Positions 1-39,886 of a stretch of 64,000 nucleotides of DNA are shown piece after piece. The position numbers were made by a program, and so were the translations under genes. The DNA is from Escherichia coli (GTDB lineage Bacteria > Pseudomonadota > Gammaproteobacteria > Enterobacterales > Enterobacteriaceae), in NCBI RefSeq assembly GCF_041886205.1, contig NZ_CP169029.1; one strand, given 5' to 3'. The notes under the pieces were generated by a model that saw nothing but the letters and a program-made list of their open reading frames with translations, was not told the origin of the DNA and ran no database searches. Every line of letters begins with the position of its first letter. Positions within the stretch are counted from its first letter, which is position 1.

Positions 1-575
1 CCAAAACAGCACAGCAGCACATCGCCCGGCTGTGCCGCTGACAACGGCACCTGATACAGCCCCGTCGCCTCCAGATTGCGTTTCACCCACGAAGCATGGC
101 CGCCATTGTCACCAAGAAAATCCCCGCCCTGCGACATAGCGATGGAAAGAGCAGGTATTGATTCGTAGTACGCCAGCATTTCAGAAAGGATCGCATCCAG
201 TTTCCTTATCGGAAAATAGGCCTGGTCATAGTTGCGATCCACCCGAAACTGGAACTCGTGATAATCATCATCGAGCTGAATGAAGTATTTACACCCGACC
301 AGTTTTGCCAGGTCGAAACAGGCATTACGGGCGTAAAAAATTGAGCGGCGGTCACAGAAATTATCGGCTTCGTCAAAACGACTGGCGATATCGGCTTTGG
401 AAAACACCAGCACCTGTTCACCAAATTCAGCCATGTACTGATGCCGTGTCTTATCTTCATCATCAACAACGATAAAAATTTTCCCGGTATAGCCAGCACG
501 ACGCAACGTCCGGTAAGTCAGAACTTTGTCCGGTCGCCCGTGAGTCAGAATAAAGGCGCAAAAATCATCACGCAT
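1..575 (-). CDS. Hypothetical protein, N-terminal ~191 aa only (gene continues past window start); weak GT-A-like motif pattern
   Basis: Own translation of the minus strand from ATG at 573-575: MRDDFCAFILTHGRPDKVL...IFIVVDDEDK...YFIQLDDDY. Start overlaps the stop of the upstream ParB-like gene (ATGCGTGA). Not in the ORF track because there is no stop inside the window. Confidence 0.5.
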   Translation of the reverse strand, partial: MRDDFCAFILTHGRPDKVLTYRTLRRAGYTGKIFIVVDDEDKTRHQYMAEFGEQVLVFSKADIASRFDEADNFCDRRSIFYARNACFDLAKLVGCKYFIQLDDDYHEFQFRVDRNYDQAYFPIRKLDAILSEMLAYYESIPALSIAMSQGGDFLGDNGGHASWVKRNLEATGLYQVPLSAAQPGDVLLCCF

Positions 576-1359
576 ATTCCTCCTCCTCACCACCATGCAT
601 GATCTCCACCATGCGCTGCGTCATCCGGACAAATCCATTTTCAATAGCCTGCTGATAATCAATGATCACCAGCGCCGACTCCTCGAAAAAACACTGAATT
701 TCAGCGGGGGCGTGAGCGTAATAGTCCGCAATTCTGCTGAAATTAAACACCGTGTGACGTTCTGCCGCACACAGGAGGAATTTCTCAATATCAGGCTCAA
801 GGGAAGCCAAACGTATCCGGCTGATCAGCTCCTGCGTTTTCGTATCGTCGTACAGTTCACTGATATCCGGTTTACCGCCCGACGGCTCATAAACAGGCGT
901 ATCAATTTTCGTCGTATACGGCTCCTCCTCATTTCCTGTACCGGGCAAAACATCCGTCAACAGTTCATCAATTTCTGTCGGGATGAAGCCTGTCAGGGAG
1001 ACATCAAAATCAGCATTGATTAGGTCCGACAGCTCCATCCGCAACAGATCTTCATCCCAGCCAGCATTCATCGGCAGGCGATTATCTGCCAGGCGGTACG
1101 CCTTTTTCTGCTCATCCGTCAGGCCAGACAGAACAATGACCGGAACAGAATCCATTTTGAGCATTTCAGCCGCCATAACACGACCGTGACCCGCAATAAT
1201 TTCGCCCTTTTCGTCAATCAGCACCGGATTAGTCCAGCCGAATTGCTTAATACTTTCTACCAGTTGTGCCACCTGCTCAGGGCTGTGCGTCCTGGCGTTG
1301 TGCGCATACGGTGACAATTCTTGTAATGGGCGATAGACTATCTTTAATTTCTCGCTCAT
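568..1359 (-). CDS. ParB-like nuclease domain (ParB/Srx fold) protein, 263 aa
   Basis: N-terminal ~100 aa resemble the ParB N-terminal domain (…AGHGRVMAA…); C-terminal 150 aa unrecognised. Good RBS (AAGGATG) before ATG. Position after trkG mirrors the Rac-prophage arrangement. Confidence 0.6.
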   Translation of the reverse strand: MSEKLKIVYRPLQELSPYAHNARTHSPEQVAQLVESIKQFGWTNPVLIDEKGEIIAGHGRVMAAEMLKMDSVPVIVLSGLTDEQKKAYRLADNRLPMNAGWDEDLLRMELSDLINADFDVSLTGFIPTEIDELLTDVLPGTGNEEEPYTTKIDTPVYEPSGGKPDISELYDDTKTQELISRIRLASLEPDIEKFLLCAAERHTVFNFSRIADYYAHAPAEIQCFFEESALVIIDYQQAIENGFVRMTQRMVEIMHGGEEEEYA

Positions 1360-1496
1360 ACATCCTTGCTTTATGAATAAAACGCACCCCAGCAGCCAGT
1401 GCTACTGGGGGCGGAGGTGTTGCTGGTAAAGTTAGGTATTGGATCAATGAGTGAGTCAACATAATATTAAACTCACAATTATAAATCAGCCATATA

Positions 1497-2954
1497 TTAG
1501 GAGCGCCAAAAAAAACCTGAAAACAAAATAATAACAGGATAAATTTCAAGGCGACCAAGAATCATAGCTATGCACATTAAATATTTTGCAATGTCATTAA
1601 GCACTCCGAATGACGATGCAGTAGCCCCAAAACCTAATCCCATATTATTAATACATGCAGCCACTGTTGCAAATGATGTAAGAAAATCATATCCCATACC
1701 ATTTAACACCAGTATAAAAAACACCGTGAAGAGAGTATAAAGAAAAAAGAAACTCCATACAGACCTCATTACACGATCTGTAACTATCTTCCCTCCTACA
1801 TTTACACTCAACAACGCTCTGGGATGAGAAAGCTGATTTATCTCGTGTTTGCTTTGTTTGAAAAGTATAAGAAATCGAAGTGACTTAATTCCACCACAAG
1901 TTGAACCTATACATCCCCCAAAGAAACTTGACAACAGCAAAAACACTATCGTGTGCGTGGGCCAGCTTGCATAATCCTGCATAGCTAAACCATTATCAGT
2001 GAGCATGGAGCTGGCAAGAAAAAACGAATGAATAAAACTTCCATGCAAGTCATACATACCTATATGCCAGACCTGGAAAGAGGTAACAATGATCACCCCT
2101 AAGGCTATTAACAGAAAGAAACGAAGTTCAATATCTCTGATTAAAGGTTTTATCGTTTTCCTGCTAATAACAATATACCAAAGAGTGAAGTTGAAAGCCG
2201 ATAGCAGGGAAAAAGAACCAGCCACCAGCTCAACCAAATAGTTATTAAAATATCCGATACTCTCGCTATGAGTTGAGAAACCACCAAGCGAAACTGTGGA
2301 AATCCCGTGACAAATAGCATCAAACAAAGGCATTCCTGCAAGTCTATAACAGACAATACAAGCAATACCTAATAAAGAATAAGTTATCCACAGTGTCCGT
2401 GACGTATCGGCCAGGCGGGGAGTGAGTTTGTCATCCTTAAATGGCCCCGGCATTTCTGACTGATAAAGCTTTGCACCACCAATACCCAATAATGGCAATA
2501 CAGCAACCGCCAGAACAATAACTCCTAAACCACCTATAAAATTTAACTGTGACCGATAGTACAAATATGCCCGAGGTAATGAACTAACATCATCAATTAC
2601 AGTTGCTCCTGTTGTTGTTATTCCAGAAACCCCTTCAAACAGAGCATCAATGAACGTTAAATTAAGTTCTGAGTCAATCCATAAAGGGAATGCACTAATA
2701 ACAGAAAACAAAATCCAAAACATTACAATTATAATAAACCCATCACGGGTACGTAATTGAATGCCAGATTTCTTAGTTGTATACCACGCTCCGCCACCAA
2801 TGCAAAAAAATATAACGAAAGTTATAAAGAAAACGAACAGGCTTTTTTCTTTATAAAACAATGCTACAACCATTGGTGGCAACATTGAAAGACTATAGAG
2901 CCAAACCAGGAACCCACACATATGAGTAACAACTCTTACATGAGATGTATTCAT
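1497..2954 (-). CDS. trkG: TrkG/TrkH-family potassium uptake membrane protein (prophage-borne)
   Basis: Translation from MNTSHVRVVTHMCGF… gives 485 aa, multi-pass membrane protein with Trk-type motifs; AT-rich codon usage. The ORF track starts 6 codons upstream (2972). Confidence 0.85.
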   Translation of the reverse strand: MNTSHVRVVTHMCGFLVWLYSLSMLPPMVVALFYKEKSLFVFFITFVIFFCIGGGAWYTTKKSGIQLRTRDGFIIIVMFWILFSVISAFPLWIDSELNLTFIDALFEGVSGITTTGATVIDDVSSLPRAYLYYRSQLNFIGGLGVIVLAVAVLPLLGIGGAKLYQSEMPGPFKDDKLTPRLADTSRTLWITYSLLGIACIVCYRLAGMPLFDAICHGISTVSLGGFSTHSESIGYFNNYLVELVAGSFSLLSAFNFTLWYIVISRKTIKPLIRDIELRFFLLIALGVIIVTSFQVWHIGMYDLHGSFIHSFFLASSMLTDNGLAMQDYASWPTHTIVFLLLSSFFGGCIGSTCGGIKSLRFLILFKQSKHEINQLSHPRALLSVNVGGKIVTDRVMRSVWSFFFLYTLFTVFFILVLNGMGYDFLTSFATVAACINNMGLGFGATASSFGVLNDIAKYLMCIAMILGRLEIYPVIILFSGFFWRS

Positions 2955-3091
2955 ATCTAAATATTCTTTCAATTATAACCACCTTGCTGCAATATTATGA
3001 TTATACTGTATAAAATTTAACTCCTCTTAGATCTTACTTCACTGTTCCTTATGAAACAATCATCAAAATGAATCATATTGTAGTTAAGATT

Positions 3092-3556
3092 TTACTTTAA
3101 ACACTGTTCGGTTATGTATTGCTGAGCACCTTCAAGTTGGGCCTGCATCATTACCAGTCGTTCCCGGAGGGTGAAATAATCCCGTTCAGCGGTGTCTGCC
3201 AGTCGGGGGGAGGCTGCATTATCCACGCCGGAGGCGGTGGTGGCTTCACGCACTGACTGACAGACTGCTTTGATGTGCAACCGACGACGACCAGCGGCAA
3301 CATCATCACGCAGAGCATCATTTTCAGCTTTCGCATCAGCTAACTCCTTCGTGTATTTTGCATCGAGCGCAGCAACATCACGCTGACGCATCTGCATGTC
3401 AGTAATTGCCGCGTTCGCCAGCTTCAGTTCTCTGGCATTTTTGTCGCGCTGGGCTTTGTAGGTAATGGCGTTATCACGGTAATGATTAACAGCCCATGAC
3501 AGGCAGACGATGATGCAGATAACCAGAGCGGAGATAATCGCGGTTACTCTGTTCAT
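3092..3556 (-). CDS. Rz i-spanin (lysis protein)
   Basis: [51 protein letters not shown]… closely matches lambda-family Rz. ATG overlaps the endolysin-frame stop. Confidence 0.85.
3151..3336 (-). CDS. Rz1 o-spanin lipoprotein, embedded in Rz in the +1 frame
   Basis: …[42 protein letters not shown]… with lipobox and proline-rich segment typical of Rz1. Exact start uncertain. Confidence 0.75.
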
Positions 3557-3570
3557 TGCTGACCCCACAA

Positions 3571-4050
3571 ACAGATTTCACGCTCAATCTCACGACGAGT
3601 CATGAGACCTTTCCATTGCTTACCGCCAGCATATGTCCAGCGACGTAGCTGATCACATGCGCCTTTGATATCGCCCTAGTTTATTTTGCGAAGAAGCGTC
3701 GATGTTCTGAAATTGCCAGCACCCACGTTGTAAACGAATGAGTAAAGAGCGCCGCGCATTGTTTCCGGTATATCGACTTTGATGTACGGGTTAATTTGTC
3801 TGGCGACCGTGGCAAGGTCTTTATTCAGGAGGGCTTTGCATTCTGCTTTGGTATACGTTTTACCGGGAATGATGTCTTTTCCTGTATGCCCGTGACATAC
3901 AGTCCATACACCAACAATATCTTTGTATGGTATGTAGCTGACACCTTCCAGACCATCGTTACCACTTGGGCCAGTAATTAACACTGATGCTATAGCAATT
4001 GCTCCGCCACCAATAGCAGCAGCAACGGCTTTTCGTAATGATGGAGGCAT
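3571..4050 (-). pseudogene. SAR-type endolysin (phage-21/DLP12 RrrD-like lysozyme) interrupted by an in-frame amber codon
   Basis: ORF ends at TAG (3676-3678) after 124 aa. The same frame continues for 34 more codons ([40 protein letters not shown]) to a TGA overlapping the Rz start. Looks like a CAG-to-TAG change. Confidence 0.7.
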
Positions 4051-4265
4051 TATTCACCTCTCGCAGCCTTGCGCTTATCTTCTTTAATCTTGAAATAAAG
4101 GTTTGTCAGGTACGTCAGCAGGCCAAATACCAGGCTACCCAGCACACCTATTGCTGCCCACTGTGAGGGCGTGACTTTATCGAGCAGCTGTAAAAACCAG
4201 TAACCGGCACTACCTGCTGAGGTGCCATAGGCGACACCCGTTGTTAACTTATCCATGGATTTCAT
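4050..4265 (-). CDS. Class II holin / pinholin (S21-like)
   Basis: [71 protein letters not shown]; two closely spaced Met starts as in phage-21 S. ORF-track start at 4310 is probably too far upstream. Confidence 0.8.
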
Positions 4266-4385
4266 AACCCCACCTCGCAGACAAAGCGGGTGTAAATTGA
4301 GGGAATACAACGTATCGCAAAAAAGCAGAAACGTAACAGACTCGGAGTCAGTGAATAACTCAGGTATTGGGTTATCAGCTAATAT

Positions 4386-4426
4386 CGAGACTCAAAAAAT
4401 GGAAAAACCCGCTCGACGGCGGGTTT
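4386..4426 (-). terminator. Candidate rho-independent terminator on the minus strand just upstream of the holin (possible tR'-like element)
   Basis: Minus-strand hairpin AAACCCGCCGTCGAGCGGGTTT followed by TTCCATTTTTTGAG. Confidence 0.4.
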
Positions 4427-4852
4427 AAGCTGTGTGACGAAGTAACCACTCTTAACAGCATAACCAATTTTTTACGTACGTAAACCACTAAATGATATTT
4501 GCGAGAATGCTACCGAGTATTGAAAACACCACTACAAATACATAAGCAAATCTCAACAAATAACCAACAAATAATTTCCAGCGTTATTTTTAGCTGGTTT
4601 AAATTGAACCTTCAAATTATAGAGCACTTATAAATAACAGCCATTAATATAAATTGGCTAATAGATTTATTTTTATTCAGCCAAGAGCCATGAATAGGAT
4701 TCGATAGAAAAAGTTCAGATAAAAATAGAGATCTACTTCACAAATCAAATGAGAAACCAAAACTTACATCTTGAAATAATCACATTGATTAGATGAATAT
4801 TTATCGCGCAGTGACATCATTTTTTAATAATAGTTCAAAAAAAGGGCTCACG

Positions 4853-5935
4853 ATGAAAAAATTAACAGTGGCAATTTCTGCTGTAGCTGCATCAGTACTG
4901 ATGGCGATGTCTGCTCAGGCAGCTGAAATTTATAATAAAGACAGTAACAAGCTGGATCTGTACGGGAAAGTTAATGCTAAGCACTACTTCTCCTCTAATG
5001 ATGCAGATGATGGTGATACTACTTATGCCCGTCTTGGCTTCAAAGGTGAAACCCAAATCAACGATCAACTGACTGGTTTCGGTCAGTGGGAATATGAATT
5101 CAAAGGCAACCGCGCTGAATCTCAAGGTTCCTCCAAAGATAAAACCCGTCTTGCCTTCGCTGGCCTGAAATTCGGTGACTACGGCTCCATCGATTATGGC
5201 CGTAACTACGGTGTAGCATACGATATTGGTGCATGGACCGACGTTCTGCCAGAATTCGGTGGCGATACCTGGACCCAAACAGATGTATTCATGACTGGTC
5301 GCACCACAGGTGTTGCAACTTATCGTAACAATGACTTCTTTGGTCTGGTTGATGGTCTGAACTTTGCTGCTCAGTATCAGGGTAAAAATGACCGCACTGA
5401 CGTAACTGAAGCTAATGGTGATGGTTTCGGTTTCTCCACTACTTATGAGTATGAAGGATTCGGTGTAGGTGCAACCTATGCTAAATCTGACCGCACTAAT
5501 AATCAGGTTATCTACGGTAACAACAGCCTGAATGCATCTGGTCAAAATGCTGAAGTATGGGCAGCTGGTCTGAAATATGATGCGAACAACATCTATCTGG
5601 CTACCACCTATTCTGAAACCCAGAACATGACTGTTTTTGGTAATAACCATATTGCCAACAAAGCACAAAACTTCGAAGTAGTTGCACAATATCAGTTCGA
5701 CTTCGGTCTGCGTCCGTCCGTTGCTTACCTGCAATCTAAAGGAAAAGACTTGGGTGCGTGGGGTGATCAGGACCTGGTTGAATATATTGATGTAGGTGCA
5801 ACCTATTACTTCAACAAAAATATGTCCACTTTTGTTGATTACAAAATCAACCTGATTGATAAGAGCGATTTCACGAAAGCATCTGGCGTTGCTACCGATG
5901 ATATCGTTGCTGTAGGTATGGTTTACCAGTTCTAA
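4853..5935 (+). CDS. nmpC: Outer-membrane general porin of the OmpC/OmpF/NmpC (phage Lc) family; appears intact
   Basis: [23 protein letters not shown] signal peptide, C-terminal …VGMVYQF, typical porin composition. Sits between Q and S on the opposite strand, as in DLP12 and PA-2. Confidence 0.8.
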
Positions 5936-6072
5936 TTTGATTACTAAAAGATATGTTGCGGGAGGCTTTGCCTCCCCAACATATAAGTGGCTCCCTCAAG
6001 CCACTTCCTTTAGGAGCACAACCTTGCTTCTAACTATATAAACCTTCTGTTATATATTACCCTTTATTTTTG

Positions 6073-6100
6073 GGGGCGTCTCAACGCCCCATTTTTAATA
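6073..6100 (+). terminator. Rho-independent terminator downstream of the porin gene
   Basis: GGGGCGTCTCAACGCCCC hairpin followed by ATTTTTAATAATTTTT. A second long hairpin (ATGTTGCGGGAGGCTTTGCCTCCCCAACAT) lies at 5957-5988. Confidence 0.5.
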
Positions 6101-6123
6101 ATTTTTAGTAAACAATTGGCATA

Positions 6124-6507
6124 TTAATTAGAGTTATTAACAACGATATCCATCTCTAACCGGATATCTAATGCCATTAACATCCCTTCAATTATGCCCT
6201 CAGCCTTCTGTAACCTTTTCCCGATATAACCATCAGAGCAGCAATGCTTACCTGCCAGTGACATGAATGTCATACCGACTACATAATAATCTACTAATAA
6301 ATCGTGCAAATCGCTGTTGTTCTTTTTCAGACGGGCCATGCACCCGCAAATAATCATCGCGTCATCGTCACAACATTGCGGGCGAGATTTTACTTTTGAA
6401 GTAATTAATCCCTTAAAACCGGCGGCAATGGACGACCAGGTCACATCTTCATGATTATTAGCCGCCCACGCTCCCCAACGCTCAAGAACCATCTGAATAT
6501 CACGCAT
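6124..6507 (-). CDS. quuD: Q-type late-gene antiterminator (DLP12 QuuD-like)
   Basis: [34 protein letters not shown]…[16 protein letters not shown]…; the ORF track extends 5 codons upstream. Confidence 0.8.
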
Positions 6508-6592
6508 CAACTTACTCCACAAAAATCAGACCAGAACGCCAATTACAAGCAAAAATCAACGAAACAGTATTAGTTGATTGTTATCTCTGACT

Positions 6593-6730
6593 TCATACTC
6601 CTGCTCCTGTCAGGGTTTTGGCGTAATTCTTCAGTATTCGGTAATCGGTCAAAACAGAACCGGGGAAACGATATAAGCGCAGACGCCCCCAGCGGTGGCG
6701 AAGACGTTCTGCCATATAAAACTCAAACAT
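6593..6730 (-). CDS. ylcG: Small nin-region ORF (YlcG-like, 45 aa)
   Basis: Own translation [48 protein letters not shown] overlaps the rusA stop (TGATG). Below the ORF-track size cut-off. Confidence 0.5.
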   Translation of the reverse strand: MFEFYMAERLRHRWGRLRLYRFPGSVLTDYRILKNYAKTLTGAGV

Positions 6731-7092
6731 CATTCATTCCCCATTTCGGTGATGGTCAGTTCCAGCCTCCCACCTTTGGTAACAGGCATCTTCACAACGC
6801 GGTAATCAACGACCTGAGCATCATCCAGCCAGAAACCTGCTTTAGTGAGTGCGTCAAAAGCGGCTTTTTGCAGATTATCCAGGTCACGGCGACGGCGATC
6901 CGGCATGTGGCACTCAATGCGGATTTTCACAGGCATAGCCAAGCCGATATCCAGCATTGCGTTTTTAATGATTCGGGCGACGTTATCGCGGTATGCCTGC
7001 CCCTCTGCGCTGACGTGCGTGCGCCCGCGATTATGGCGGTAATAGCGATTATTGCTCGGAGGCCAGGGTAATGTGATGCTGTAGGTATTCAC
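6730..7092 (-). CDS. rusA: RusA Holliday-junction resolvase
   Basis: [108 protein letters not shown]… 120 aa. Confidence 0.9.
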
Positions 7093-7379
7093 GCCTTAAT
7101 AACCCCCTCTTTCAGCCAGATAACCTGTGTTCTCGCCATACCTTCCAGCGCGCATTCTTTTGCATATGCAGCATCGACAAAATGTGTGCGGCGGTCGATT
7201 TCGTCGTGGCAGGCAGAACATGCAATGGTGGCAATCAGGTCTGGCGGTTTGGTACCGGTGCCGCACAATCCAGTCAGCCGGATATGTGCCAGTACAGACG
7301 TTTCAGGGTTACCATTACATACGCCAGGGATTCTTACCTGGCATTCCCGACTACGCGCTGCTTTTCTCAAATCAGCCAT
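7089..7379 (-). CDS. ybcO: Nin-region protein YbcO-like (96 aa)
   Basis: [67 protein letters not shown]…; ORF track starts further upstream at 7418. Confidence 0.75.
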
Positions 7380-7542
7380 GATTCCTCCTTGCTGCCAGTC
7401 GCAACCATTTTTTATCAACCAGGCTGGCGGTATATCCGAGCAGTGTTGGTATTTCGGAAGGTTTCAGCTCCGGTTTACGCTTACGACGATTTGGTACTCT
7501 GTAGATGTGTCCGTTCATGACACGAATAAGCGGTGTAGCCAT
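7372..7542 (-). CDS. ninE: NinE-like protein (56 aa)
   Basis: Own translation [56 protein letters not shown]; start overlaps ybcN stop, stop overlaps ybcO start. Confidence 0.75.
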   Translation of the reverse strand: MATPLIRVMNGHIYRVPNRRKRKPELKPSEIPTLLGYTASLVDKKWLRLAARRNHG

Positions 7543-7951
7543 TACGCCTCCTGCTTGTCACGGAGCTGCTGGAACTCGCAGCTCTGCGGAATAGTCAGAT
7601 GGCAGCCAATATTCACCGCCCAGGCTTCAACCTTACACAGGAAGACATACATCTCTCCGGTATCAAGATCGGAGGTATGGCGTAACGACTGGATAGTGGT
7701 GATATCACCGGTTACGACATCAACCAGGTCTTTGGTTTCATAACCGAGATATGTGTGTTTGAGAGCATCTTTTACCCAAGCTGGAGTGGCGAACGTTTTA
7801 CCCCTGCTGATGAGGTATTCACTGATTTCGCTGTACCACATGTGGCTGAGTGCATTCTGGGAAAGACTGCGTTTCTCACGCCACGGTTTAAGCACCATGA
7901 ACCGCCCCGGGAATCCTGGAGACTAAACTTCCTGAGAAAGAGGTAAACAGG

Positions 7952-8274
7952 ATGACTAAAAATACTCGTTTTTCCCCCGAAGTCCGTCAACGGGCAGTCC
8001 GTATGGTTCTGGAAAGTCAGAGCGAATATGACTCACAATGGGCGACAATTTGTTCCATTGCTCCAAAGATTGGCTGTACGCCGGAGACTCTGCGTGTCTG
8101 GGTTCGCCAGCATGAGCGGGATACCGGGGGCGGTGATGGAGGGCTCACCACCGCTGAACGTCAGCGTCTGAAAGAGCTGGAACGTGAAAATCGTGAACTG
8201 CGCCGCAGTAACGATATCCTTCGCCAGGCTTCCGCTTATTTTGCGAAGGCGGAGTTCGACCGCCTCTGGAAAAA

Positions 8275-8278
<4 letters not shown>
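7952..8278 (+). CDS. IS3-family transposase OrfA (HTH + leucine zipper)
   Basis: [60 protein letters not shown]…. Confidence 0.85.
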
Positions 8279-9166
<888 letters not shown>

Positions 9167-9270
9167 GTTCACAGATAAAACACTCTCCAGGAAACCCGGG
9201 GCGGTTCACCATGCGAAAGCATTTGCCCTCCTCCAGATAAGGCTGGATCTGCCGACCGATAGCGGTGAAG

Positions 9271-9558
9271 TTACCGCGATGTAATTTTATGCCGTCTTGT
9301 GGGAGGTTCACGCTTCACCTCCGCAGAGGCCAAACGCTGGATGCAAAAAATCGCAGGTGCATTTCTGCATCTGTGAATGGAGAAGATAGGTTGGTTTGTA
9401 TGTGCGCATAACCCCAAATCTTCATACGTTACGGTATCAAGGTAATAATCACTATTTACCTTTAGCCATTCAGTAATAAGCCTTCTCTGGCGGTTTAATG
9501 AATCACCAGACATCTGACCTGGTGATGAAAATCGCATATATGCTATGGCTTTTTTCAT
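9271..9558 (-). pseudogene. 5' fragment of a serine recombinase / resolvase gene (DLP12 YbcK-like)
   Basis: First ~50 aa (MKKAIAYMRFSSPGQMSGDSLNRQRRLITEWL…) look like a resolvase catalytic N-terminus; the rest is non-homologous and overlaps the ybcN start, implying a deletion junction. Confidence 0.5.
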
Positions 9559-9813
9559 GGTGACACCTGCTAAAGTATGCTTTTATAAACCTTAGTGGTG
9601 AGATATGATTTTTGTTTAATTTTTATTTAAAAAGACAATTAAGGTCACATTATCTTGAATATACAACAATAATCGCATTGCAATTTTCTTACACCATAAT
9701 CCTGAAAGCACAAAAGAATGAATAAAAACTAAAGACATTAACAAAAAGCATAAAACGAGGCCCATATAAATATACGAACCTCCATATTTTAGTCGTTTAA
9801 AAACAAATTATTT

Positions 9814-10146
9814 TTAATGTGGTGTGCTTCGTGACAATAAATTAATAACCAACACACCGGCACAAATCAACATCATGCCTATAATGGCTGGCAGGTCCAA
9901 CCGTTGGCCGAAAAATCCCCATGATAGTAAGCTAATCAGGACAATACCGACTCCTGACCAGATAGCATAAGCAATCCCTGTAGGAATATAAGCCAGCGTC
10001 TGAGCTAATAACCAGAATGATGCACAATAACAAATAATTGTACCAACAGATGGCCATAACCGTGTAAAACCTTCTGAAAACTTCATTAAGGTTGTACCAA
10101 TGACCTCTGCAAGTATTGCACCACCAAGATAAATATAAGGATTCAT
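9814..10146 (-). CDS. emrE: Small multidrug resistance efflux protein EmrE (110 aa)
   Basis: MNPYIYLGGAILAEVIGTTLMKFSEGFTRLWPSVGTIICYCASFWLLAQTLAYIPTGIAYAIWSGVGIVLISLLSWGFFGQRLDLPAIIGMMLICAGVLVINLLSRSTPH; the ORF track starts 18 codons upstream. Confidence 0.9.
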   Translation of the reverse strand: MNPYIYLGGAILAEVIGTTLMKFSEGFTRLWPSVGTIICYCASFWLLAQTLAYIPTGIAYAIWSGVGIVLISLLSWGFFGQRLDLPAIIGMMLICAGVLVINLLSRSTPH

Positions 10147-10213
10147 AGCATATTCTTTCCTGTTCAAACTGGAGAGAATTGTACTACAGTTTGAACTCAA
10201 CTCACCTGTTTCA

Positions 10214-10516
10214 TCATTGTGTACCCATTGATGTTCTTTTATATACCCTCAATACCCGTTTCATCGCGGCACTCTGGCGACACTCCTTAAAAATCAAATT
10301 CGTGCTCACCTTTCCTTCCCATTCTTCTCTGGTAGCGAACCGATAATACACCGTTCGCCAGACCTTACCATCAACGACCAGGATTCCTGCCCGCGCCATT
10401 TTAGCCGCAGCCTGATTTATGCTGGTTACCGTTGCGCCTGTTACCGCGGCAACGTCCTGCGCACAGAATTTCTTATGAGTCCCCAGGTAATGAATAATTG
10501 CCTCTTTGCCCGTCAT
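10214..10516 (-). CDS. ren: Lambda Ren-like protein
   Basis: MTGKEAIIHYLGTHKKFCAQDVAAVTGATVTSINQAAAKMARAGILVVDGKVWRTVYYRFATREEWEGKVSTNLIFKECRQSAAMKRVL…. Confidence 0.8.
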   Translation of the reverse strand: MTGKEAIIHYLGTHKKFCAQDVAAVTGATVTSINQAAAKMARAGILVVDGKVWRTVYYRFATREEWEGKVSTNLIFKECRQSAAMKRVLRVYKRTSMGTQ

Positions 10517-10901
10517 ACCCTTGCTCCTTTCAGCCCAAACTTAGCTTTGATTTCTGCGATCTTCGCCAGAGCCTGTGCACGATTTAGAGGTCTACCGCCC
10601 ATGACAGGAAGTTGTTTTACTGGTTCAGGTATAGCCTCACCACGGTTAATTCGCGCGGTCATACAGGCCAGTTCATCGGCAGCCTTGCGCCGTAATTCCG
10701 CGTCAGTCAACGCATTGGCCCGCATGTTCTGGTAGCCAGGCTCGCCGGGAAAGTTGCCAGTAACTGGCTGAACACACCATTGATGATCTGCGCTACCAGC
10801 TGTACCTGCGGCTTTTCGTCGTACTGTTCCGGCATGTTATTGGCGATCCGACGCATCTGCTCACGGTCAAAGTTAACCATCTGTGCGGCGATGTTTTTCA
10901 T
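10513..10901 (-). pseudogene. P: Replication protein P with an internal out-of-frame deletion
   Basis: N-terminal fragment MKNIAAQMVNFDREQMRRIANNMPEQYDEKPQVQ…ATFPASLA (10707-10901) and C-terminal fragment …YQNMRANALTDAELRRKAADEL…AKFGLKGARV (10513-10725) lie in different frames, joined near 10730. Confidence 0.75.
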
Positions 10902-11425
10902 AAATCCACCCCATAAATCCAGTCAGTGTTTGTCAGGTCGAGTTTTGATTTTCCGGCTGTCACGCCAGCCTGTTGCTTGTTACGGTTGATTTCGAGTTGG
11001 GTCCACTTGTCGCGGAGTTTGGCCGGACATAGCACGTTACCGGACCAGAAGTTGTCCTGGCATGCCCAGCGGAACAGCACGCACATGTCGCGGTGGTTAC
11101 GTCCGTCACGTTCACGCATCAGGCGGATATCGTTAGCCCACCCTGCAAAATTCGGTTTTCTGGCTGATGGCGCGATGGTCTTCACCATGTCAAACATCCA
11201 CTCTGCGGCGGTCAGGTCTTCTGCTGTCCCCCACTTGCTGCCGCTCTGAATTGCAGCATCCGGTTTCACCACAGGAAGATCGTTTTCTGGCTGGTCAGAG
11301 GATTCGTCAGAATTCTCGGACGAAAAAGGTTTTATATTGTCTTTTGTTAGTTTGTCTTTTGTGTTTACCTGATTCGGGTAAACGCCTTTAATCGAACAAG
11401 ACCCGTTAGTAACTATCGACATCAT
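10898..11425 (-). pseudogene. O: C-terminal remnant of replication initiator O; N-terminal domain and ori are absent
   Basis: …KDNIKPFSSENSDESSDQPENDLPVVKPDAAIQSGSKWGTAEDLTAAEWMFDMVKTIAPSARKPNFAGWANDIRLMRERDGRNHRDMCVLFRWACQDNFWSGNVL… matches the lambda O C-terminal domain. Upstream sequence is from the left arm (ea22 3' end), so the gene is truncated at a deletion junction. Confidence 0.75.
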
Positions 11426-11716
11426 TACGCATCGCTATTACGGGGTTGGAGGTCAATGGGTTCAGGATGCAGGTGAGTATCTGCATATGATGTCTGACGC
11501 TGGCATTCGCATCAAAGGAGAGTGAGATCGGTTTTGTAAAAGATAACGCTTGTGAAAATGCTGAATTTCGCGTCGTCTTCACAGCGATGCCAGAGTCTGT
11601 AGTGTCAGATGATGACCGTACTCAAACATCGGGTTGAGTATTATCTTACTGTTTCTTTACATAAACATTGCTGATACCGTTTAGCTGAAACGACATACAT
11701 TGCAAGGAGTTTATAA

Positions 11717-11998
11717 ATGAGTATCAATGAGTTAGAGTCTGAGCAAAAAGATTGGGCGTTATCAATGTTGTGCAGATCCGGTGTCTTGTCTCCATGCAGA
11801 CATCACGAAGGTGTTTATGTAGATGAAGGTATAGATATAGAGTCGGCATACAAATATTCCATGAAGGTTTATAAGTCTAATGAAGACAAATCCCCATTCT
11901 GCAATGTGCGAGAAATGACTGATACCGTGCAAAATTATTATCACGAGTACGGTGGAAACGATACTTGCCCTCTCTGTACAAAACATATAGATGATTAA
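11717..11998 (+). CDS. ea8.5: Lambda Ea8.5 protein (93 aa)
   Basis: MSINELESEQKDWALSMLCRSGVLSPCRHHEGVYVDEGIDIESAYKYSMKVYKSNEDKSPFCNVREMTDTVQNYYHEYGGNDTCPLCTKHIDD; correct spacing relative to xis/int. Confidence 0.85.
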   Translation: MSINELESEQKDWALSMLCRSGVLSPCRHHEGVYVDEGIDIESAYKYSMKVYKSNEDKSPFCNVREMTDTVQNYYHEYGGNDTCPLCTKHIDD

Positions 11999-12293
11999 AC
12001 CCAATATTACATAACAATCCTCGCACTCGCGGGGATTTATTTTATCTGAACTCGCTACGGCGGGTTTTGTTTTATGGAGATGATAAATGCACTTCCGAGT
12101 CACAGGAGAATGGAATGGAGAGCCATTCAACAGAGTTATCGAAGCGGAGAACATCAACGACTGCTACGACCACTGGATGATATGGGCGCAGATAGCACAT
12201 GCAGACATAACCAATATTCGAATTGAAGAACTGAAAGAACACCAAGCCGCCTGATGGCGGTTTTTTCTTGCGTGTAATTGCGGAGACTTTGCG

Positions 12294-12512
12294 ATGTACT
12301 TGACACTTCAGGAGTGGAACGCTCGCCAGCGACGCCCAAGAAGCCTTGAAACAGTTCGTCGATGGGTGCGCGAATGCAAGATATTCCCTCCTCCGGTTAA
12401 GGATGGAAGAGAATATCTGTTCCACGAATCAGCGGTAAAGGTTGACTTAAATCGACCAGTAACAGGTAGCCTTTTGAAGAGGATCAGAAATGGGAAGAAG
12501 GCGAAGTCATGA
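12294..12512 (+). CDS. xis: Excisionase Xis (72 aa)
   Basis: MYLTLQEWNARQRRPRSLETVRRWVRECKIFPPPVKDGREYLFHESAVKVDLNRPVTGSLLKRIRNGKKAKS; overlaps the int start as in lambda. Confidence 0.95.
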   Translation: MYLTLQEWNARQRRPRSLETVRRWVRECKIFPPPVKDGREYLFHESAVKVDLNRPVTGSLLKRIRNGKKAKS

Positions 12513-13560
12513 GCGCCGGGATTTACCCCCTAACCTTTATATAAGAAACAATGGATATTACTGCTACAGGGACCCAAGGACGGGTAAAGAGTTTGGATTA
12601 GGCAGAGACAGGCGAATCGCAATCACTGAAGCCATACAGGCCAACATTGAGTTATTTTCAGGACACAAACACAAGCCTCTGACAGCGAGAATCAACAGTG
12701 ATAATTCCGTTACGTTACATTCATGGCTTGATCGCTACGAAAAAATCCTGGCCAGCAGAGGAATCAAGCAGAAGACACTCATAAATTACATGAGCAAAAT
12801 TAAAGCAATAAGGAGGGGGCTGCCTGATGCTCCACTTGAAGACATCACCACAAAAGAAATTGCGGCAATGCTCAATGGATACATAGACGAGGGCAAGGCG
12901 GCGTCAGCCAACTTAATCAGATCAACACTGAGCGATGCATTCCGAGAGGCAATAGCTGAAGGCCATATAACAACAAACCCTGTCGCTGCCACTCGCGCAG
13001 CAAAATCAGAGGTAAGGAGATCAAGACTTACGGCTGACGAATACCTGAAAATTTATCAAGCAGCAGAATCATCACCATGTTGGCTCAGACTTGCAATGGA
13101 ACTGGCTGTTGTTACCGGGCAACGAGTTGGTGATTTATGCGAAATGAAGTGGTCTGATATCGTAGATGGATATCTTTATGTCGAGCAAAGCAAAACAGGC
13201 GTAAAAATTGCCATCCCAACAACATTGCATGTTGATGCTCTCGGGATATCAATGAAGGAAACACTTGATAAATGCAAAGAGATTCTTGGCGGAGAAACCA
13301 TAATTGCATCTACTCGTCGTGAACCGCTTTCATCCGGCACAGTATCAAGGTATTTTATGCGCGCACGAAAAGCATCAGGTCTTTCCTTCGAAGGGGATCC
13401 GCCTACCTTTCACGAGTTGCGCAGTTTGTCTGCAAGACTCTATGAGAAGCAGATAAGCGATAAGTTTGCTCAACATCTTCTCGGGCATAAGTCGGACACC
13501 ATGGCATCACAGTATCGTGATGACAGAGGCAGGGAGTGGGACAAAATTGAAATCAAATAA
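12490..13560 (+). CDS. int: Lambda-type tyrosine integrase Int (356 aa), apparently intact
   Basis: MGRRRSHERRDLPPNLYIRNNGYYCYRDPRTGKEFGLGRDRRIAITEAIQANIELFSGHKHKPL… with C-terminal …HELRSLSARLYEKQISDKFAQHLLGHKSDTMASQYRDDRGREWDKIEIK. Confidence 0.95.
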   Translation: MGRRRSHERRDLPPNLYIRNNGYYCYRDPRTGKEFGLGRDRRIAITEAIQANIELFSGHKHKPLTARINSDNSVTLHSWLDRYEKILASRGIKQKTLINYMSKIKAIRRGLPDAPLEDITTKEIAAMLNGYIDEGKAASANLIRSTLSDAFREAIAEGHITTNPVAATRAAKSEVRRSRLTADEYLKIYQAAESSPCWLRLAMELAVVTGQRVGDLCEMKWSDIVDGYLYVEQSKTGVKIAIPTTLHVDALGISMKETLDKCKEILGGETIIASTRREPLSSGTVSRYFMRARKASGLSFEGDPPTFHELRSLSARLYEKQISDKFAQHLLGHKSDTMASQYRDDRGREWDKIEIK

Positions 13561-13660
13561 TGATTTTATTTTGACTGATAGTGACCTGTTCGTTGCAACA
13601 AATTGATAAGCAATGCTTTTTTATAATGCCAACTTAGTATAAAAAAGCAGGCTTCAACGG
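13561..13660. other. attL prophage-host junction: phage P' arm (13561-13633), 15-bp core (13634-13648), bacterial arm
   Basis: …GTTGCAACAAATTGATAAGCAATGCTTTTTTATAATGCCAAC TTAGTATAAAAAAGC AGGCTTCA…; the sequence left of the core is the lambda attP arm, the sequence right of it runs into the ybhC upstream region. Confidence 0.9.
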
Positions 13661-13694
13661 ATTCATTTTTCTATTTCATAGCCCGGAGCAACCT

Positions 13695-14978
13695 GTGAAT
13701 ACATTTTCAGTTTCCCGTCTGGCGCTGGCATTGGCTTTTGGCGTGACGCTGACCGCCTGTAGCTCAACCCCGCCCGATCAACGTCCTTCTGATCAAACCG
13801 CGCCTGGTACCTCTTCTCGCCCGATTCTGTCGGCAAAAGAAGCGCAGAATTTCGATGCTCAACACTATTTTGCATCCCTGACACCAGGTGCTGCAGCGTG
13901 GAATCCTTCCCCGATTACCCTGCCTGCGCAACCTGACTTTGTTGTCGGCCCGGCGGGCACTCAAGGTGTAACGCATACCACGATTCAGGCGGCGGTAGAT
14001 GCGGCAATTATCAAGCGTACCAACAAGCGCCAGTATATTGCCGTGATGCCTGGTGAGTATCAGGGAACGGTATATGTCCCTGCCGCTCCGGGTGGAATTA
14101 CTCTGTACGGTACAGGTGAAAAACCGATTGATGTGAAGATTGGGCTTTCCCTTGATGGTGGCATGAGCCCTGCCGACTGGCGTCACGACGTCAACCCGCG
14201 CGGCAAATATATGCCAGGTAAACCAGCGTGGTATATGTACGATAGCTGCCAGAGCAAACGCAGCGACAGTATCGGTGTTCTCTGCTCTGCGGTCTTCTGG
14301 TCACAAAACAATGGCCTGCAACTGCAAAATCTGACCATCGAAAACACGCTGGGCGATAGCGTAGATGCAGGTAACCATCCGGCGGTGGCACTGCGTACTG
14401 ATGGTGACCAGGTACAGATTAACAACGTTAACATTCTCGGTCGTCAGAACACCTTCTTTGTCACCAACAGCGGTGTGCAGAACCGTCTGGAAACGAATCG
14501 TCAGCCGCGTACGCTGGTGACCAACAGCTACATTGAAGGGGATGTGGATATCGTTTCTGGTCGCGGCGCAGTGGTGTTCGATAACACCGAATTCCGCGTG
14601 GTGAACTCACGTACTCAGCAAGAAGCGTATGTGTTTGCACCGGCTACGCTGTCCAACATTTACTACGGTTTCCTCGCCGTAAACAGCCGTTTCAATGCTT
14701 TCGGTGATGGTGTGGCGCAACTGGGCCGCTCGCTGGATGTTGATGCCAATACCAACGGTCAGGTGGTGATCCGTGATAGCGCCATCAACGAAGGTTTTAA
14801 CACGGCTAAACCGTGGGCCGATGCGGTGATCTCTAATCGTCCGTTTGCGGGTAATACCGGCAGCGTAGATGATAACGACGAAATACAGCGCAATCTGAAT
14901 GACACTAACTACAACCGCATGTGGGAATACAATAACCGCGGCGTGGGCAGCAAAGTGGTTGCAGAGGCGAAGAAGTAA
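13695..14978 (+). CDS. ybhC: Outer-membrane lipoprotein YbhC (pectinesterase-like acyl-CoA thioesterase family)
   Basis: Lipoprotein signal (…LTLTACSS), 427 aa. Confidence 0.85.
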   Translation: MNTFSVSRLALALAFGVTLTACSSTPPDQRPSDQTAPGTSSRPILSAKEAQNFDAQHYFASLTPGAAAWNPSPITLPAQPDFVVGPAGTQGVTHTTIQAAVDAAIIKRTNKRQYIAVMPGEYQGTVYVPAAPGGITLYGTGEKPIDVKIGLSLDGGMSPADWRHDVNPRGKYMPGKPAWYMYDSCQSKRSDSIGVLCSAVFWSQNNGLQLQNLTIENTLGDSVDAGNHPAVALRTDGDQVQINNVNILGRQNTFFVTNSGVQNRLETNRQPRTLVTNSYIEGDVDIVSGRGAVVFDNTEFRVVNSRTQQEAYVFAPATLSNIYYGFLAVNSRFNAFGDGVAQLGRSLDVDANTNGQVVIRDSAINEGFNTAKPWADAVISNRPFAGNTGSVDDNDEIQRNLNDTNYNRMWEYNNRGVGSKVVAEAKK

Positions 14979-14993
14979 GAGCTATTAACTATT

Positions 14994-15112
<119 letters not shown>

Positions 15113-15118
15113 CGCTTT

Positions 15119-17380
15119 TTACATCTGACGGTTTTTATTGAAGTTAATCAAACTACCCGCCTTGATAATCTCGCGCTCTTCAGCAGTCAGACTTTCCATA
15201 TAGAGCGTAATCTCCGTTACCGGCGCATCTTCATGGATCACATAACCTTTAAACGTCGTACCCGGATTATCCAGCGCCGCTTTAATGCCAGGGATGTAAA
15301 TGTAATCCCCCACTTCAAAGGTTGGCGCTTCCGCCATCTGCAGCGGTAACATCCCCCAGTTGATGACGTTAGAACGGTAGCGTTTAGTCGCGTACTCCTC
15401 GGCAATATTCGCCAGACCGCCAATCACACGCTGGCAGCTCGCCGCCTGTTCACGCGCAGAACCATCGCCTGGTTTCACCGCATAGACCATGCTGCCAATT
15501 TCAGTTTGCAGCGGATCAATATGCTCCTGACCAGCAATCTGCTTAATGCGCGCAAACACCTCTGTCAGCTCGCTGACATTCCCCGCCAGACGCTGATTTT
15601 CCAGCTCAGCAGTCGCTTTACTTCTGCCAACATAACCGGGATCGCGGCGAGACAGGGTAAACTCCGCCAGACCAATCGGATTTGAACGATAAGAAGAGGT
15701 TTCACCGGAAGGAATCAGTTCGTCGGTGGTGGTCACTTCGTCGAGGATCTTCGAGCACACTTTGAGGACGATATTGTCAGTCAGCGCACCCAATTCCGGC
15801 CAGTCTTTAATGTTCGGTCCGTAAATCAGCGGTTGCTGAGTTGCCCCTTTCACAAAGCCCTGATAAACACGGTTTTTATACGGCGTTACATCGAAGGCGT
15901 ACTCCGGCACGTTGTCCCAGCAATCAAGTTCGCTGGCAGAAGTTAAATAGCCACCGTTTGCCGCAGTCGCAGCGATAGAACGAGCGTCCATCAACGCCAC
16001 CGCTGACATCTGCCCATTGGCTGGCTTAGAGCCTTCGCGATTCGGGAAGTTACGCGTGGTGTGGCGAATACTCAAACCGTTGTTGATTGGCGTATCGCCC
16101 GCGCCAAAGCATGGGCCGCAGAACGCGGTTCTGATGATTGCGCCTGCGCCAATCAAATCTGCTACCACACCTTTTTTGGCGAGATCCATAAACACCGGCT
16201 GTGATGACGGGTAAACCGCTAACGAGAAGGTGTCATTGCCACAGGATTGACCGCGCAGTGCGTTCGCCGCCGCGATGACGTTTTCGTAGTTACCGCCAGA
16301 ACAGCCCGCGATAATCCCCTGCTGCACTTTCAGGCGACCATTTTCTACTTTATCCAGCAGCGAGAGTTTGGCTTTACCGTGCGCCACGCGTTCGGACTCA
16401 ATTTCAATCTCACGCAGAATGTCGATCAGGTTCTGGTTCAGTGTGTCGATTTCATACACGTTGCTCGGATGGAACGGCAGCGCAATCATTGGTTTGATGG
16501 CGCTTAAATCAACGCTGATGCAACCATCGTAGTACGCCATCGGTTGTGGATTAAGCTGGCAATAATCCTGGCCGCGACCGTGCAGCGCCAGCCAGTTATG
16601 CACTTCTTCATCGGTTTGCCAGACAGAACTTAAACAGGTCGTTTCAGTGGTCATAACGTCAACGCTGTTACGGAAATCGGTAGAGAGCGCAGCAACACCG
16701 GGTCCTACGAATTCCATCACTTTGTTTTTGACGTAGCCGTTTTTGAACACGGCACCGATGATAGCCAGCGCCACATCCTGCGGCCCCACATACGGCGCTG
16801 GTTTTCCGGTCAGATGCACCGCAACCACGCCCGGATAGTCGATATCCCAGGTGTCATTCAGCAGCTGTTTTACCAACTCACCGCCGCCCTCACCGACTGC
16901 CATTGTCCCTAATGCACCGTAACGGGTGTGGCTGTCTGACCCGAGGATCATTTTGCCGCCGCCTGCCATCATCTCACGCATATATTGATGGATGACCGCA
17001 ATGTGCGGAGGCACAAAAATACCGCCATAACGCTGAGCCGCCGATAAACCAAAAACATGGTCATCACCGTTAATGGTGCCACCGACGGCGCAAAGTGAGT
17101 TATGGCAGTTGGTCAGCACATACGGCAGCGGGAAACGTTCCATACCGGACGCTTTAGCGGTCTGTACAATACCAACAAAGGTAATATCGTGAGAGGCTAA
17201 TGAATCAAACTTAATTTTAAGTTTATCCATATTTCCGGACGTATTATGAGAAGAGAGAATAGACCAGGCAATAGTGCCTTTTTGGGCTTCTTCTTTTTTA
17301 ATTTGGCCGGTGAAATGTTCTTCGGCAATTATTTCGTTATTACTGGCGAGAAACACGCCTTTTTCAGATAACTTGATCAT
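15119..17380 (-). CDS. ybhJ: Aconitase-family putative hydratase YbhJ
   Basis: 753-aa product starting [18 protein letters not shown]…; the ORF track begins 8 codons upstream. Confidence 0.8.
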
Positions 17381-38792: not shown

Positions 38793-38864
38793 CTTACCAT
38801 CTCGTTTTACAGGCTTAACGTTAAAACCGACATTAGCGTAATATTCGCTGTTATCGGTGTAATT

Positions 38865-38882
38865 TGTTTTATATGCTAAACA
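38865..38882. promoter_or_regulatory. NadR (NAD box) operator upstream of nadA-pnuC
   Basis: TGTTTTATATGCTAAACA (TGTTTA-like inverted repeat), about 75 bp upstream of the nadA start. Confidence 0.7.
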
Positions 38883-39061
38883 AGATAGTCGAATGGTGGG
38901 GAAAAGTCACTCGAATTACGTATGAGATGCCGAATGCCACACTTTGCGTCTTATTCCTCCGACGTAAAGTTGTTTACGCAGCAAGCGCGGAGTATGTCAT
39001 CAGGGTCAAGAATTGAAATTGAGAGATGCCTGAATAGCAAAAAAGCGCCTTTAGGGCGCTT

Positions 39062-39697: not shown

Positions 39698-39773
39698 GTA
39701 ATTAGTGGTGGGTCGTGCAGGATTCGAACCTGCGACCAATTGATTAAAAGTCAACTGCTCTACCAACTGAGCT
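39698..39773 (-). tRNA. lysW: tRNA-Lys (UUU)
   Basis: Identical 76-nt tRNA-Lys sequence. Confidence 0.95.
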
Positions 39774-39775
39774 AA

Positions 39776-39851: not shown

Positions 39852-39886
39852 AATCACCCAATACTACGCTGGATACTACAACTAAC

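What the first reader, a model, noticed from the sequence alone, without database searches (positions are those of the whole stretch)
10898..11525. Deletion junction joining the left arm (ea22 3' end) directly to the O C-terminal domain
Plus-strand reading into 11525 ends with a stop exactly where the ea22 stop should fall by lambda spacing from ea8.5, while the minus strand from 11425 downward encodes only the C-terminal domain of O. The two arms are therefore fused somewhere between about 11370 and 11525. The ea22 coordinates come from my recollection of the lambda map, which matched int, xis and ea8.5 exactly.
Basis: inference. Interest (0 to 1): 0.4.

Follow-up and report, generated by a model that had tools for sequence, protein, structure and literature searches.

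The report
Deletion scar in a dead prophage
This is the scar of an 8-9 kb deletion inside a decayed lambda-like prophage of E. coli, which joined the tail end of gene ea22 to the back half of the replication gene O; it is an ordinary product of prophage decay.

Summary

- **Lambda side.** Window 11388-13648 is collinear with lambda 29984-27724 (99.2% identity, no gaps). This stretch holds the last 45 codons of ea22, with its stop at 11523-11525, then ea8.5, xis, int and the attL core.
- **O side.** Window 10898-11390 (minus strand) is the C-terminal 163 codons of a replication protein O. It is not lambda's own allele. It matches the O of phage Lambda_4C10 (98.5% DNA identity), whose origin has five 20-nt iterons.
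- **Junction.** The two arms meet at 11388-11390, sharing only TTA. One iteron and the AT-rich box survive. No insertion sequence lies at the junction.
- **What is missing.** The O DNA-binding domain, four iterons, cII, cro, cI, N, kil, the red genes and most of ea22.
- **Further decay.** P next door has a 311-bp out-of-frame deletion.
- **Distribution.** The same scar occurs in strain wlxctx60 and in 18 public contigs, so it is inherited and not an assembly artefact.
- **Context.** Other E. coli strains carry comparable central deletions at the same attachment site, mostly bounded by insertion sequences.

Verdict: a non-functional decay scar of low interest.

The parts
10898..11390 (-). O' : C-terminal 163 codons plus stop of a Lambda_4C10-type replication initiator O. 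The N-terminal iteron-binding domain is absent.
   Evidence: 98.5% DNA identity to 4C10 38608-37951 and 94.9% to lambda 39750-39119. Protein is 99% identical to 4C10 O residues 175-339. No Pfam Phage_rep_O hit. PGAP calls it an incomplete O pseudogene in wlxctx60.
11323..11363 (.). Retained AT-rich box of the phage replication origin, inside O'.
   Evidence: Collinear with the 4C10 ori and with the lambda AT-rich region next to iteron 4. Lambda homology ends at 11364 = lambda 39119. A 15-nt direct repeat lies at 11332-11361.
11364..11383 (.). The single surviving ori iteron, TTTACCTGATTCGGGTAAAC, out of five in the intact phage.
   Evidence: the repeat finder reports an inverted repeat at 11363-11383 in the window and five 20-nt copies in Lambda_4C10 at L005 2132-2246.
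11388..11390 (.). Deletion junction: TTA shared by both parents. 11387-11390 (TTTA) are the first 4 nt of iteron 2.
   Evidence: Three-way comparison of window, 4C10 ori and lambda ea22. The O parent matches through 11390 and the ea22 parent matches from 11388.
11388..11525 (+). ea22' : last 45 codons plus stop of lambda ea22. It has no start codon, and an in-frame TAA at 11379-11381 closes the frame upstream.
   Evidence: Identical to lambda 29984-29847. 45/45 aa match Ea22 residues 138-182. The frame was read directly from the sequence.
11391..11425 (-). Fortuitous 12-codon leader (MMSIVTNGSCSI) of the chimeric 175-aa ORF, read from the antisense of ea22'.
   Evidence: ORF list. The alignment to O starts only at ORF residue 11-13. 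No sigma-70-like promoter was found in 10800-12100.
10513..10901 (-). P' : helicase-loader gene P with a 311-bp out-of-frame internal deletion. The junction is at 10733/10734, with TA shared.
   Evidence: Lambda 39751-40061 and 4C10 38609-38919 are missing. PGAP marks it 'frameshifted' in wlxctx60. P is intact in strain 573.
10214..10516 (-). ren (intact, 100 aa).
   Evidence: ORF list. Annotated 'protein ren' in wlxctx60.
11717..11998 (+). ea8.5 (intact).
   Evidence: Pfam Lambda_ea8_5, E = 1e-48. Collinear with lambda 29655-29374.
12294..13560 (+). xis (12294-12512) and int (12490-13560), both intact.
   Evidence: Collinear with lambda 29078-27812. Annotated as excisionase and integrase in wlxctx60.
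13634..13648 (-). attL core GCTTTTTTATACTAA, the prophage/chromosome boundary next to ybhC.
   Evidence: Exact match, unique in the window. Lambda homology ends at 27724 = window 13648.

Best explanation
The feature is a non-functional scar.

**What the sequence shows.** A lambdoid prophage sits at the lambda attachment site beside ybhC. Its left arm is lambda-type (int, xis, ea8.5, ea22). Its replication and nin/late arm is Lambda_4C10/DLP12-type (O, P, ren, emrE, ybcK ... rusA, quuD, porin, essD, rrrD). One internal deletion of about 8-9 kb runs from codon 137 of ea22 to the 4th nucleotide of the second ori iteron inside gene O. It removed most of ea22, the red/gam/kil/cIII genes, N, the immunity region, cro, cII, the O DNA-binding domain and four of five iterons. 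The two ends share only TTA, and no insertion-sequence end lies at the joint.

**What is inferred.** The event was illegitimate, homology-independent recombination, either replication slippage/template switching or break-and-join at a 3-bp microhomology. The deletion was tolerated, and probably favoured, because it removes repressor control together with everything that would kill the host once control is lost: pL/pR transcription, kil, and O/ori-dependent in-situ replication. What remains (O', P' with a second deletion, ea22') is dead DNA. It has been inherited vertically in one E. coli lineage.
For: - The two arms align to their parents without gaps and meet at 11388-11390.
- The O N-terminal domain is absent, while the intact 4C10 O has it at residues 51-145.
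- One iteron remains of five.
- ea22' has no start codon and its frame is closed upstream.
- No promoter-like site lies in 10800-12100.
- P next door has its own 311-bp frameshifting deletion.
- An undeleted relative at the same chromosomal site, strain AR_0369, carries O-cII-cro-cI-N-cIII-kil-gam-bet-exo-TraR-ea22 between the two points, about 7.9 kb. The lambda equivalent is about 9.1 kb.
- The junction is identical in wlxctx60 and in 8 of 8 fetched contigs out of the 18 that carry the chimeric ORF.
- Comparable central deletions occur at the same att site in other strains and in DLP12 of K-12.
- Unrepressed replication from a non-excisable lambda fragment is lethal, and survivors carry O/P/ori lesions (PMC6022878, read).
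Against: - The exact parent (lambda-type ea22 together with 4C10-type O in one prophage) was not found, so the deletion size is an estimate from relatives.
- The mechanism is inferred from the junction sequence only. A 3-bp microhomology is weak evidence.
- The selective argument is inference, and neutral loss is equally compatible with the data.
- Strain 573 has the same O-side endpoint joined to a different partner. A single simple deletion does not explain that.
Confidence: 0.93

Rival explanations
1. An insertion sequence made the deletion (IS-mediated adjacent deletion), and the IS was later lost or replaced, leaving a clean joint.
For: In related strains the same region is bounded by IS ends that abut a truncated O: IS1A, IS1B and an IS629-like element. 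Strain 573 has an IS2 fragment joined to O' at the very same nucleotide.
Against: There is no IS end, fragment or target-site duplication at 11380-11400 in the window. Clean loss of an IS that leaves 138 bp of ea22 in register with lambda is not a known outcome of IS1 or IS2 activity (own knowledge). No intermediate with a full IS2 beside ea22' exists among 5,426 complete genomes.
Confidence: 0.04
2. The chimeric 175-aa ORF is a domesticated O C-terminal domain. That domain is the part that contacts P, so when expressed it could act as a decoy against incoming lambdoid phages.
For: The ORF is open, starts with ATG, is 99% identical to the O C-terminal domain, and is kept unchanged in 18 contigs. 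The O C-terminal part is the P-interacting part (own knowledge of lambda biology; O-P interaction is the theme of PMC6022878).
Against: No promoter-like site and no Shine-Dalgarno sequence lie upstream. The start codon is an accident of antisense ea22. Neighbouring P is frameshifted. Identity across contigs is explained by recent common descent. PGAP treats the ORF as a pseudogene. In other strains O' is cut at different points by IS elements with no preserved frame.
Confidence: 0.03
3. It is not a deletion but the natural mosaic boundary of a working phage that has a short O, or it is an assembly artefact.
For: Lambdoid phages are mosaics, and O proteins vary in length: 299 aa in lambda and 339 aa in 4C10.
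Against: No phage record among 50,697 covers the junction. All 69 metagenome copies of this ori segment continue into iteron 2. The element lacks repressor, N, cro, the O DNA-binding domain and most of its origin. The junction recurs in independent assemblies from different sequencing runs.
Confidence: 0.005

Closest known systems
Cryptic prophage DLP12 of E. coli K-12 (exoD' | peaD' junction, then renD-emrE-ylcJ-ybcK)
   Same: It has the same right-arm gene set (ren, emrE, ylcJ, ybcK, ybcN, ninE, ybcO, rusA, ylcG, quuD, porin, essD, rrrD, rzpD). It has the same kind of central deletion, which joins a left-arm remnant to a remnant of the replication module. Window 9403-10734 is 95-97% identical to K-12 568034-569057 and 566466-566774.
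   Different: DLP12 sits at argU with its own integrase, whereas this element sits at lambda attB with lambda-type int/xis. The DLP12 joint is exo'|P', so O is entirely gone; here the joint is ea22'|O' and one iteron remains. DLP12 ren is split by IS3, and here ren is intact.
IS-bounded truncations of O in attB-lambda prophage remnants of other E. coli strains (NCTC11121, Res13-Lact-EB12-05, ET245, C325, MMC-J-0105, 573)
   Same: They share the chromosomal site, the int-xis arm and the loss of the early/immunity region. In most of them the right endpoint lies in O, within about 90 bp of the AT-rich box and iterons.
   Different: Those joints carry an IS end (IS1A, IS1B, IS629-like) or an IS2 fragment. 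The window's joint is IS-free with 3-bp microhomology. Several of them have lambda-type rather than 4C10-type O.
Laboratory lambda ori and O deletion mutants selected as survivors of replicative killing (r/ori95, 96, 98; RK- ilr mutants)
   Same: These are small deletions and insertions in the iteron/AT-rich part of O that abolish origin function and let a host with a trapped prophage survive (PMC6022878).
   Different: They are small lesions made under a designed selection in lambda itself. Here the deletion is 8-9 kb, natural, and in a different iteron type, and the selective history is only inferred.
Phage Lambda_4C10 (LR595861, Bievrevirus), the intact model for the O-P-ren-emrE arm
   Same: 98.5% identity over O'/P and 97% over P-ren-emrE-ybcK', with identical iteron and AT-rich sequence up to the breakpoint.
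   Different: It is a complete phage with a 339-aa O, five iterons, its own immunity region and a different integrase. It has no lambda-type ea22/ea8.5.

Membership tests
Lambda-type replication initiator O with its internal origin | N-terminal iteron-binding domain (Pfam Phage_rep_O, PF04492) | tested here: not met
   No Pfam hit in the 175-aa ORF. The intact 4C10 O hits PF04492 at residues 51-145, E = 9e-34.
Lambda-type replication initiator O with its internal origin | C-terminal (P-interacting) part of O | tested here: met
   163/165 identical to 4C10 O residues 175-339. 87% identical to lambda O residues 132-299.
Lambda-type replication initiator O with its internal origin | Array of four or more iterons next to an AT-rich box | tested here: not met
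   One iteron (11364-11383) plus 4 nt of the next. The AT-rich box is retained. The intact phage has five iterons.
Ea22 (ead/Ea22-like protein gene) | Complete reading frame with a start codon | tested here: not met
   Only residues 138-182 of 182 are present. An in-frame TAA at 11379-11381 lies just upstream of the joint (sequence).
Defective (cryptic) lambdoid prophage, DLP12-like | Integrated at an att site with an integrase, but lacking genes essential for lytic growth | tested here: met
   attL core at 13634-13648. int and xis are intact. There is no repressor, N, cro or O N-terminus. P is frameshifted. The late region is reduced to fragments in the near-identical wlxctx60 annotation.
Defective (cryptic) lambdoid prophage, DLP12-like | DLP12 itself: located at argU with intD | tested here: not met
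   The element lies between ybhC and the bio side, at lambda attB, with lambda-type int.
IS-mediated adjacent deletion | A terminal inverted repeat of an IS abutting the novel joint | tested here: not met
   The joint reads ...GGGTAAACGCCTTTAATCGAACAAG..., with both sides accounted for by O and ea22. The nearest IS is at 7898-9207.
Microhomology-associated illegitimate deletion | Both parents readable up to the joint, with a few shared bases and no inserted DNA | tested here: met
   TTA is shared. There are no filler bases.

The most novel reading that the evidence does not exclude
The accidental 175-aa ORF (12 antisense-ea22 codons fused to the O C-terminal domain) is expressed. It protects the host by titrating the P protein of incoming lambdoid phages, making it a domesticated replication-decoy defence. 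A milder alternative is that the 4th nucleotide of iteron 2 of this origin type is a deletion hot spot, because strain 573 has an unrelated partner joined at exactly the same base.
Probability: 0.03. Interest if true: 0.5.

Novelty: already known. Interest (0 to 1): 0.1.

Why it matters
It matters little beyond bookkeeping. It fixes to the base where this prophage remnant lost its early region, and it shows that the remnant cannot replicate or be induced. It also corrects the assumption that the parent was lambda itself: the replication arm is 4C10/DLP12-type. The comparative picture has modest value as an illustration. Many E. coli strains have independently lost the same central block at lambda attB, with right-hand endpoints that often lie in or near the origin inside O. 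This shows how lysogens disarm prophages while keeping int/xis and cargo genes such as emrE.

Tried and rejected
1. **Hot-spot test.** I scanned metagenome contigs for the iteron-1/spacer 27-mer followed by anything other than iteron 2. None was found. With the plain 27-mer, 69 of 69 copies continue into iteron 2. This gives no independent support for a breakpoint hot spot, but no deleted copies were sampled either.
2. **Search for an intermediate.** I looked for a full IS2 inserted just after the ea22 stop beside ea22'. Among 5,426 complete genomes none exists. The three apparent full-length hits have IS2 elsewhere; MB53, for example, has it between ea8.5 and xis.
3. **Order of events.** I tried to decide whether the window junction and the strain 573 junction share descent. 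The O'/P arm differs at 16 of 658 positions and the int arm at 8 of 2170. The late regions carry different scars. The result is inconclusive.
4. **Int-mediated deletion.** The joint has no resemblance to the att core and is not anchored at att. Rejected.
5. **Promoter scan for the chimeric ORF.** Nothing was found.
6. **Exact parent.** I looked for a parent combining lambda-type ea22 with 4C10-type O. None was found. 4C10 lacks lambda ea22/ea8.5, and AR_0369 has lambda-type O.
7. **Literature.** Searches for a description of this attB-lambda remnant returned nothing specific.

Full report
**Where the window comes from.** Window 9500-13700 is 100% identical to the chromosome of E. coli strain wlxctx60 (NZ_AP045833). 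Over 1-16000 the two differ by five substitutions and one extra 1,310-bp insertion sequence in the window. The region is a heavily decayed lambdoid prophage at the lambda attachment site. Lambda homology ends at the att core (window 13634-13648, exact GCTTTTTTATACTAA), followed by ybhC, ybhJ and onward.

**Checking the observation.**
- BLASTN against lambda NC_001416 aligns window 11388-13648 with lambda 29984-27724 at 99.25% and with no gaps.
- The 45 codons at 11388-11522 are identical to Ea22 residues 138-182.
- On the minus strand, ORF 10898-11425 (175 aa) aligns with lambda O residues 132-299 at 87%.
- This ORF has no Pfam Phage_rep_O domain. The intact O of a related phage has that domain at residues 51-145.

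**The exact joint.**
- Lambda homology on the O side stops at window 11364, which corresponds to lambda 39119, the edge of lambda iteron 4. Homology to phage Lambda_4C10 (LR595861, Bievrevirus) continues to 11390 at 98.5%.
- In 4C10 the origin has five 20-nt iterons, TTTACCTGATTCGGGTAAAC.
- The window keeps the AT-rich box (11323-11363), the first iteron (11364-11383), the 3-nt spacer, and TTTA, the first four bases of iteron 2.
- Laying the three sequences side by side, the O parent matches through 11390 and the ea22 parent matches from 11388. The joint is therefore TTA at 11388-11390, with no filler and no IS end.
- The first 12 codons of the 175-aa ORF (11391-11425) are the antisense of ea22 and not O.
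- On the plus strand the ea22 frame is closed by TAA at 11379-11381, and no start codon remains.

**What was lost.**
- An undeleted relative at the same site, strain AR_0369, has ren-P-O-cII-cro-cI-N-cIII-kil-gam-bet-exo-orf60a-orf63-TraR-ea22-ea8.5-xis-int-ybhC in the same order. In that genome the two breakpoints are about 7.9 kb apart. In lambda they are about 9.1 kb apart (29985 to about 39090).
- The exact parent, combining lambda-type ea22 with 4C10-type O, was not found, so the size is an estimate.
- The right arm (O-P-ren-emrE-ylcJ-ybcK ... ybcN-ninE-ybcO-rusA-ylcG-quuD-porin-essD-rrrD-rzpD) is the gene set of DLP12 in K-12. It is also the gene set of the live phage Lambda_4C10.

**Is anything left that works?**
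- No sigma-70-like promoter is found in 10800-12100, and no Shine-Dalgarno sequence precedes the ATG at 11425.
- P, immediately downstream, has a separate 311-bp out-of-frame deletion at 10733/10734. It is intact in strain 573.
- With one iteron, no O DNA-binding domain and no P, the origin cannot fire. With no cI, cro, N, pL or pR there is nothing to induce.
- int, xis, ea8.5, ren and emrE remain open.

**Is it real and inherited?**
- The 201-bp junction query is fully covered in one of 5,426 complete genomes, wlxctx60, and in no phage record.
- The exact 175-aa chimeric protein is on record from NCBI, ENA and Logan assemblies. Eighteen contigs carry it.
- All eight fetched contigs contain the identical 61-mer across the joint and the P-deletion joint, in the same ybhC-int-...-emrE-...-rusA context.
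- It is a stable scar of one lineage. The IS in ybcN is private to the window's strain.

**Context: a recurrent pattern.** Other strains show other central deletions at the same att site.

| Strain | Joint |
|---|---|
| NCTC11121, NCTC9966 | O' \| IS1A \| orf55' |
| Res13-Lact-EB12-05 | O' \| IS1A |
| ET245 | O' \| IS1B \| TraR |
| C325 | O' \| IS629-like |
| MMC-J-0105 | near-full O \| IS629-like \| ea8.5 |
| BS74R-D and the IAL strains | ren' \| orf60a, no IS |
| MB53 | Q \| IS1A \| TraR |
| K-12 DLP12 | exoD' \| peaD' (P') |

Most right-hand endpoints fall in O, close to the AT-rich box and iterons.

A plausible reason is the following; it is inference, not shown here. A deletion that removes the repressor is survivable only if it also removes or disables pL/pR-driven killing functions and O/ori-dependent in-situ replication. 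Hayes and colleagues describe that replication as lethal 'replicative killing', and its survivors carry O, P or ori lesions (PMC6022878). The known preference of IS1 for AT-rich targets (own knowledge) may add to the clustering.

**Mechanism.** What is shown is a clean joint with 3 bp of shared sequence and no IS. What is inferred is illegitimate recombination at a microhomology, by slippage/template switching or by break-and-join. The breakpoint lies at the start of a palindromic iteron (inverted arms at 11363-11383 and the next copy), a kind of site where such events are known to occur (own knowledge). This is not evidence on its own.

**One thing not explained.** Strain 573 has O' ending at the same base (...GGGTAAACGCCTTTA). 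There it is joined to the internal part of IS2 (right 715 bp), whose outer end abuts the base 5 bp past the ea22 stop.
- IS2 has patchy similarity to iteron 1 plus spacer at that point (CGGGTAAtCGtCgggTA). This may explain where that joint formed.
- Either the 573 form derives from a window-type ancestor, or the two events hit the same base independently.
- Tests were inconclusive. No intermediate exists. There is no hot-spot signal in 69 metagenome copies. Divergence is unequal on the two arms, and the late-region scars differ.

**Verdict.** It is an ordinary prophage-decay scar. The truncated O is already flagged as a pseudogene in RefSeq. Interest is low.

Noticed in passing
window 10733-10734 (within 10513-10901, minus strand): Gene P has its own 311-bp out-of-frame internal deletion (lambda 39751-40061 and 4C10 38609-38919 are missing), with TA shared at the joint. 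The same deletion is present in every contig that carries the main junction.
   Followed up: yes
window 9403-9411: A third deletion joint lies here. About 3.1 kb (4C10 40252-43362: most of ybcK and neighbouring genes) is missing, with a 9-bp imperfect microhomology TGCGCaTAA. Only a 95-aa ybcK N-terminal remnant is left.
   Followed up: partly
window 7898-9207: A 1,310-bp IS3-family element (IS629/IS1203-like by my recollection of its orfA and ends) is inserted in ybcN with a 3-bp target duplication, CCA. It is absent from wlxctx60 and from all contigs that carry the junction, so it is private to the window's strain.
   Followed up: partly
L003 5190-5215 (E. coli strain 573), equivalent to window 11376-11391: O' ends at exactly the same nucleotide as in the window, but it is joined to an internal IS2 fragment instead of ea22'. 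Each junction type is unique among 5,426 complete genomes. Whether this reflects common descent plus IS2 remodelling or a recurrent breakpoint was not resolved.
   Followed up: partly
L004, L008-L012, L089 (attB-lambda region of other E. coli strains): At least eight different central deletions of lambdoid prophages occur at the same attachment site. Most are bounded by IS1A, IS1B or IS629-like ends that abut a truncated O near the origin. Two are IS-free: ren'|orf60a, and the one in the window.
   Followed up: partly
L014 39508-39840 (phage Lambda_4C10): The multidrug efflux gene emrE and the whole 'DLP12-type' right arm (ybcK, ybcN, ninE, ybcO, rusA, Q, porin, holin, lysozyme) are carried by a complete, isolated phage. 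emrE in K-12 DLP12 and in this window is therefore phage cargo from a living lineage.
   Followed up: no
window about 1497-2954, mapped from the wlxctx60 annotation L001 5312-6769: trkG and a ynaK fragment, which I recall as genes of the Rac prophage in K-12, sit between the lysis genes and tail-gene fragments. The late region of this remnant is therefore itself a patchwork of at least two prophage types.
   Followed up: no
L007 (NZ_CP025268, labelled K-12 MG1655, Boston): This 'MG1655' record carries a partial lambda prophage at attB: int-xis-ea8.5-ea22-...-exo-bet-gam-kil-cIII. It looks like a recombineering strain rather than wild-type MG1655.
   Followed up: no
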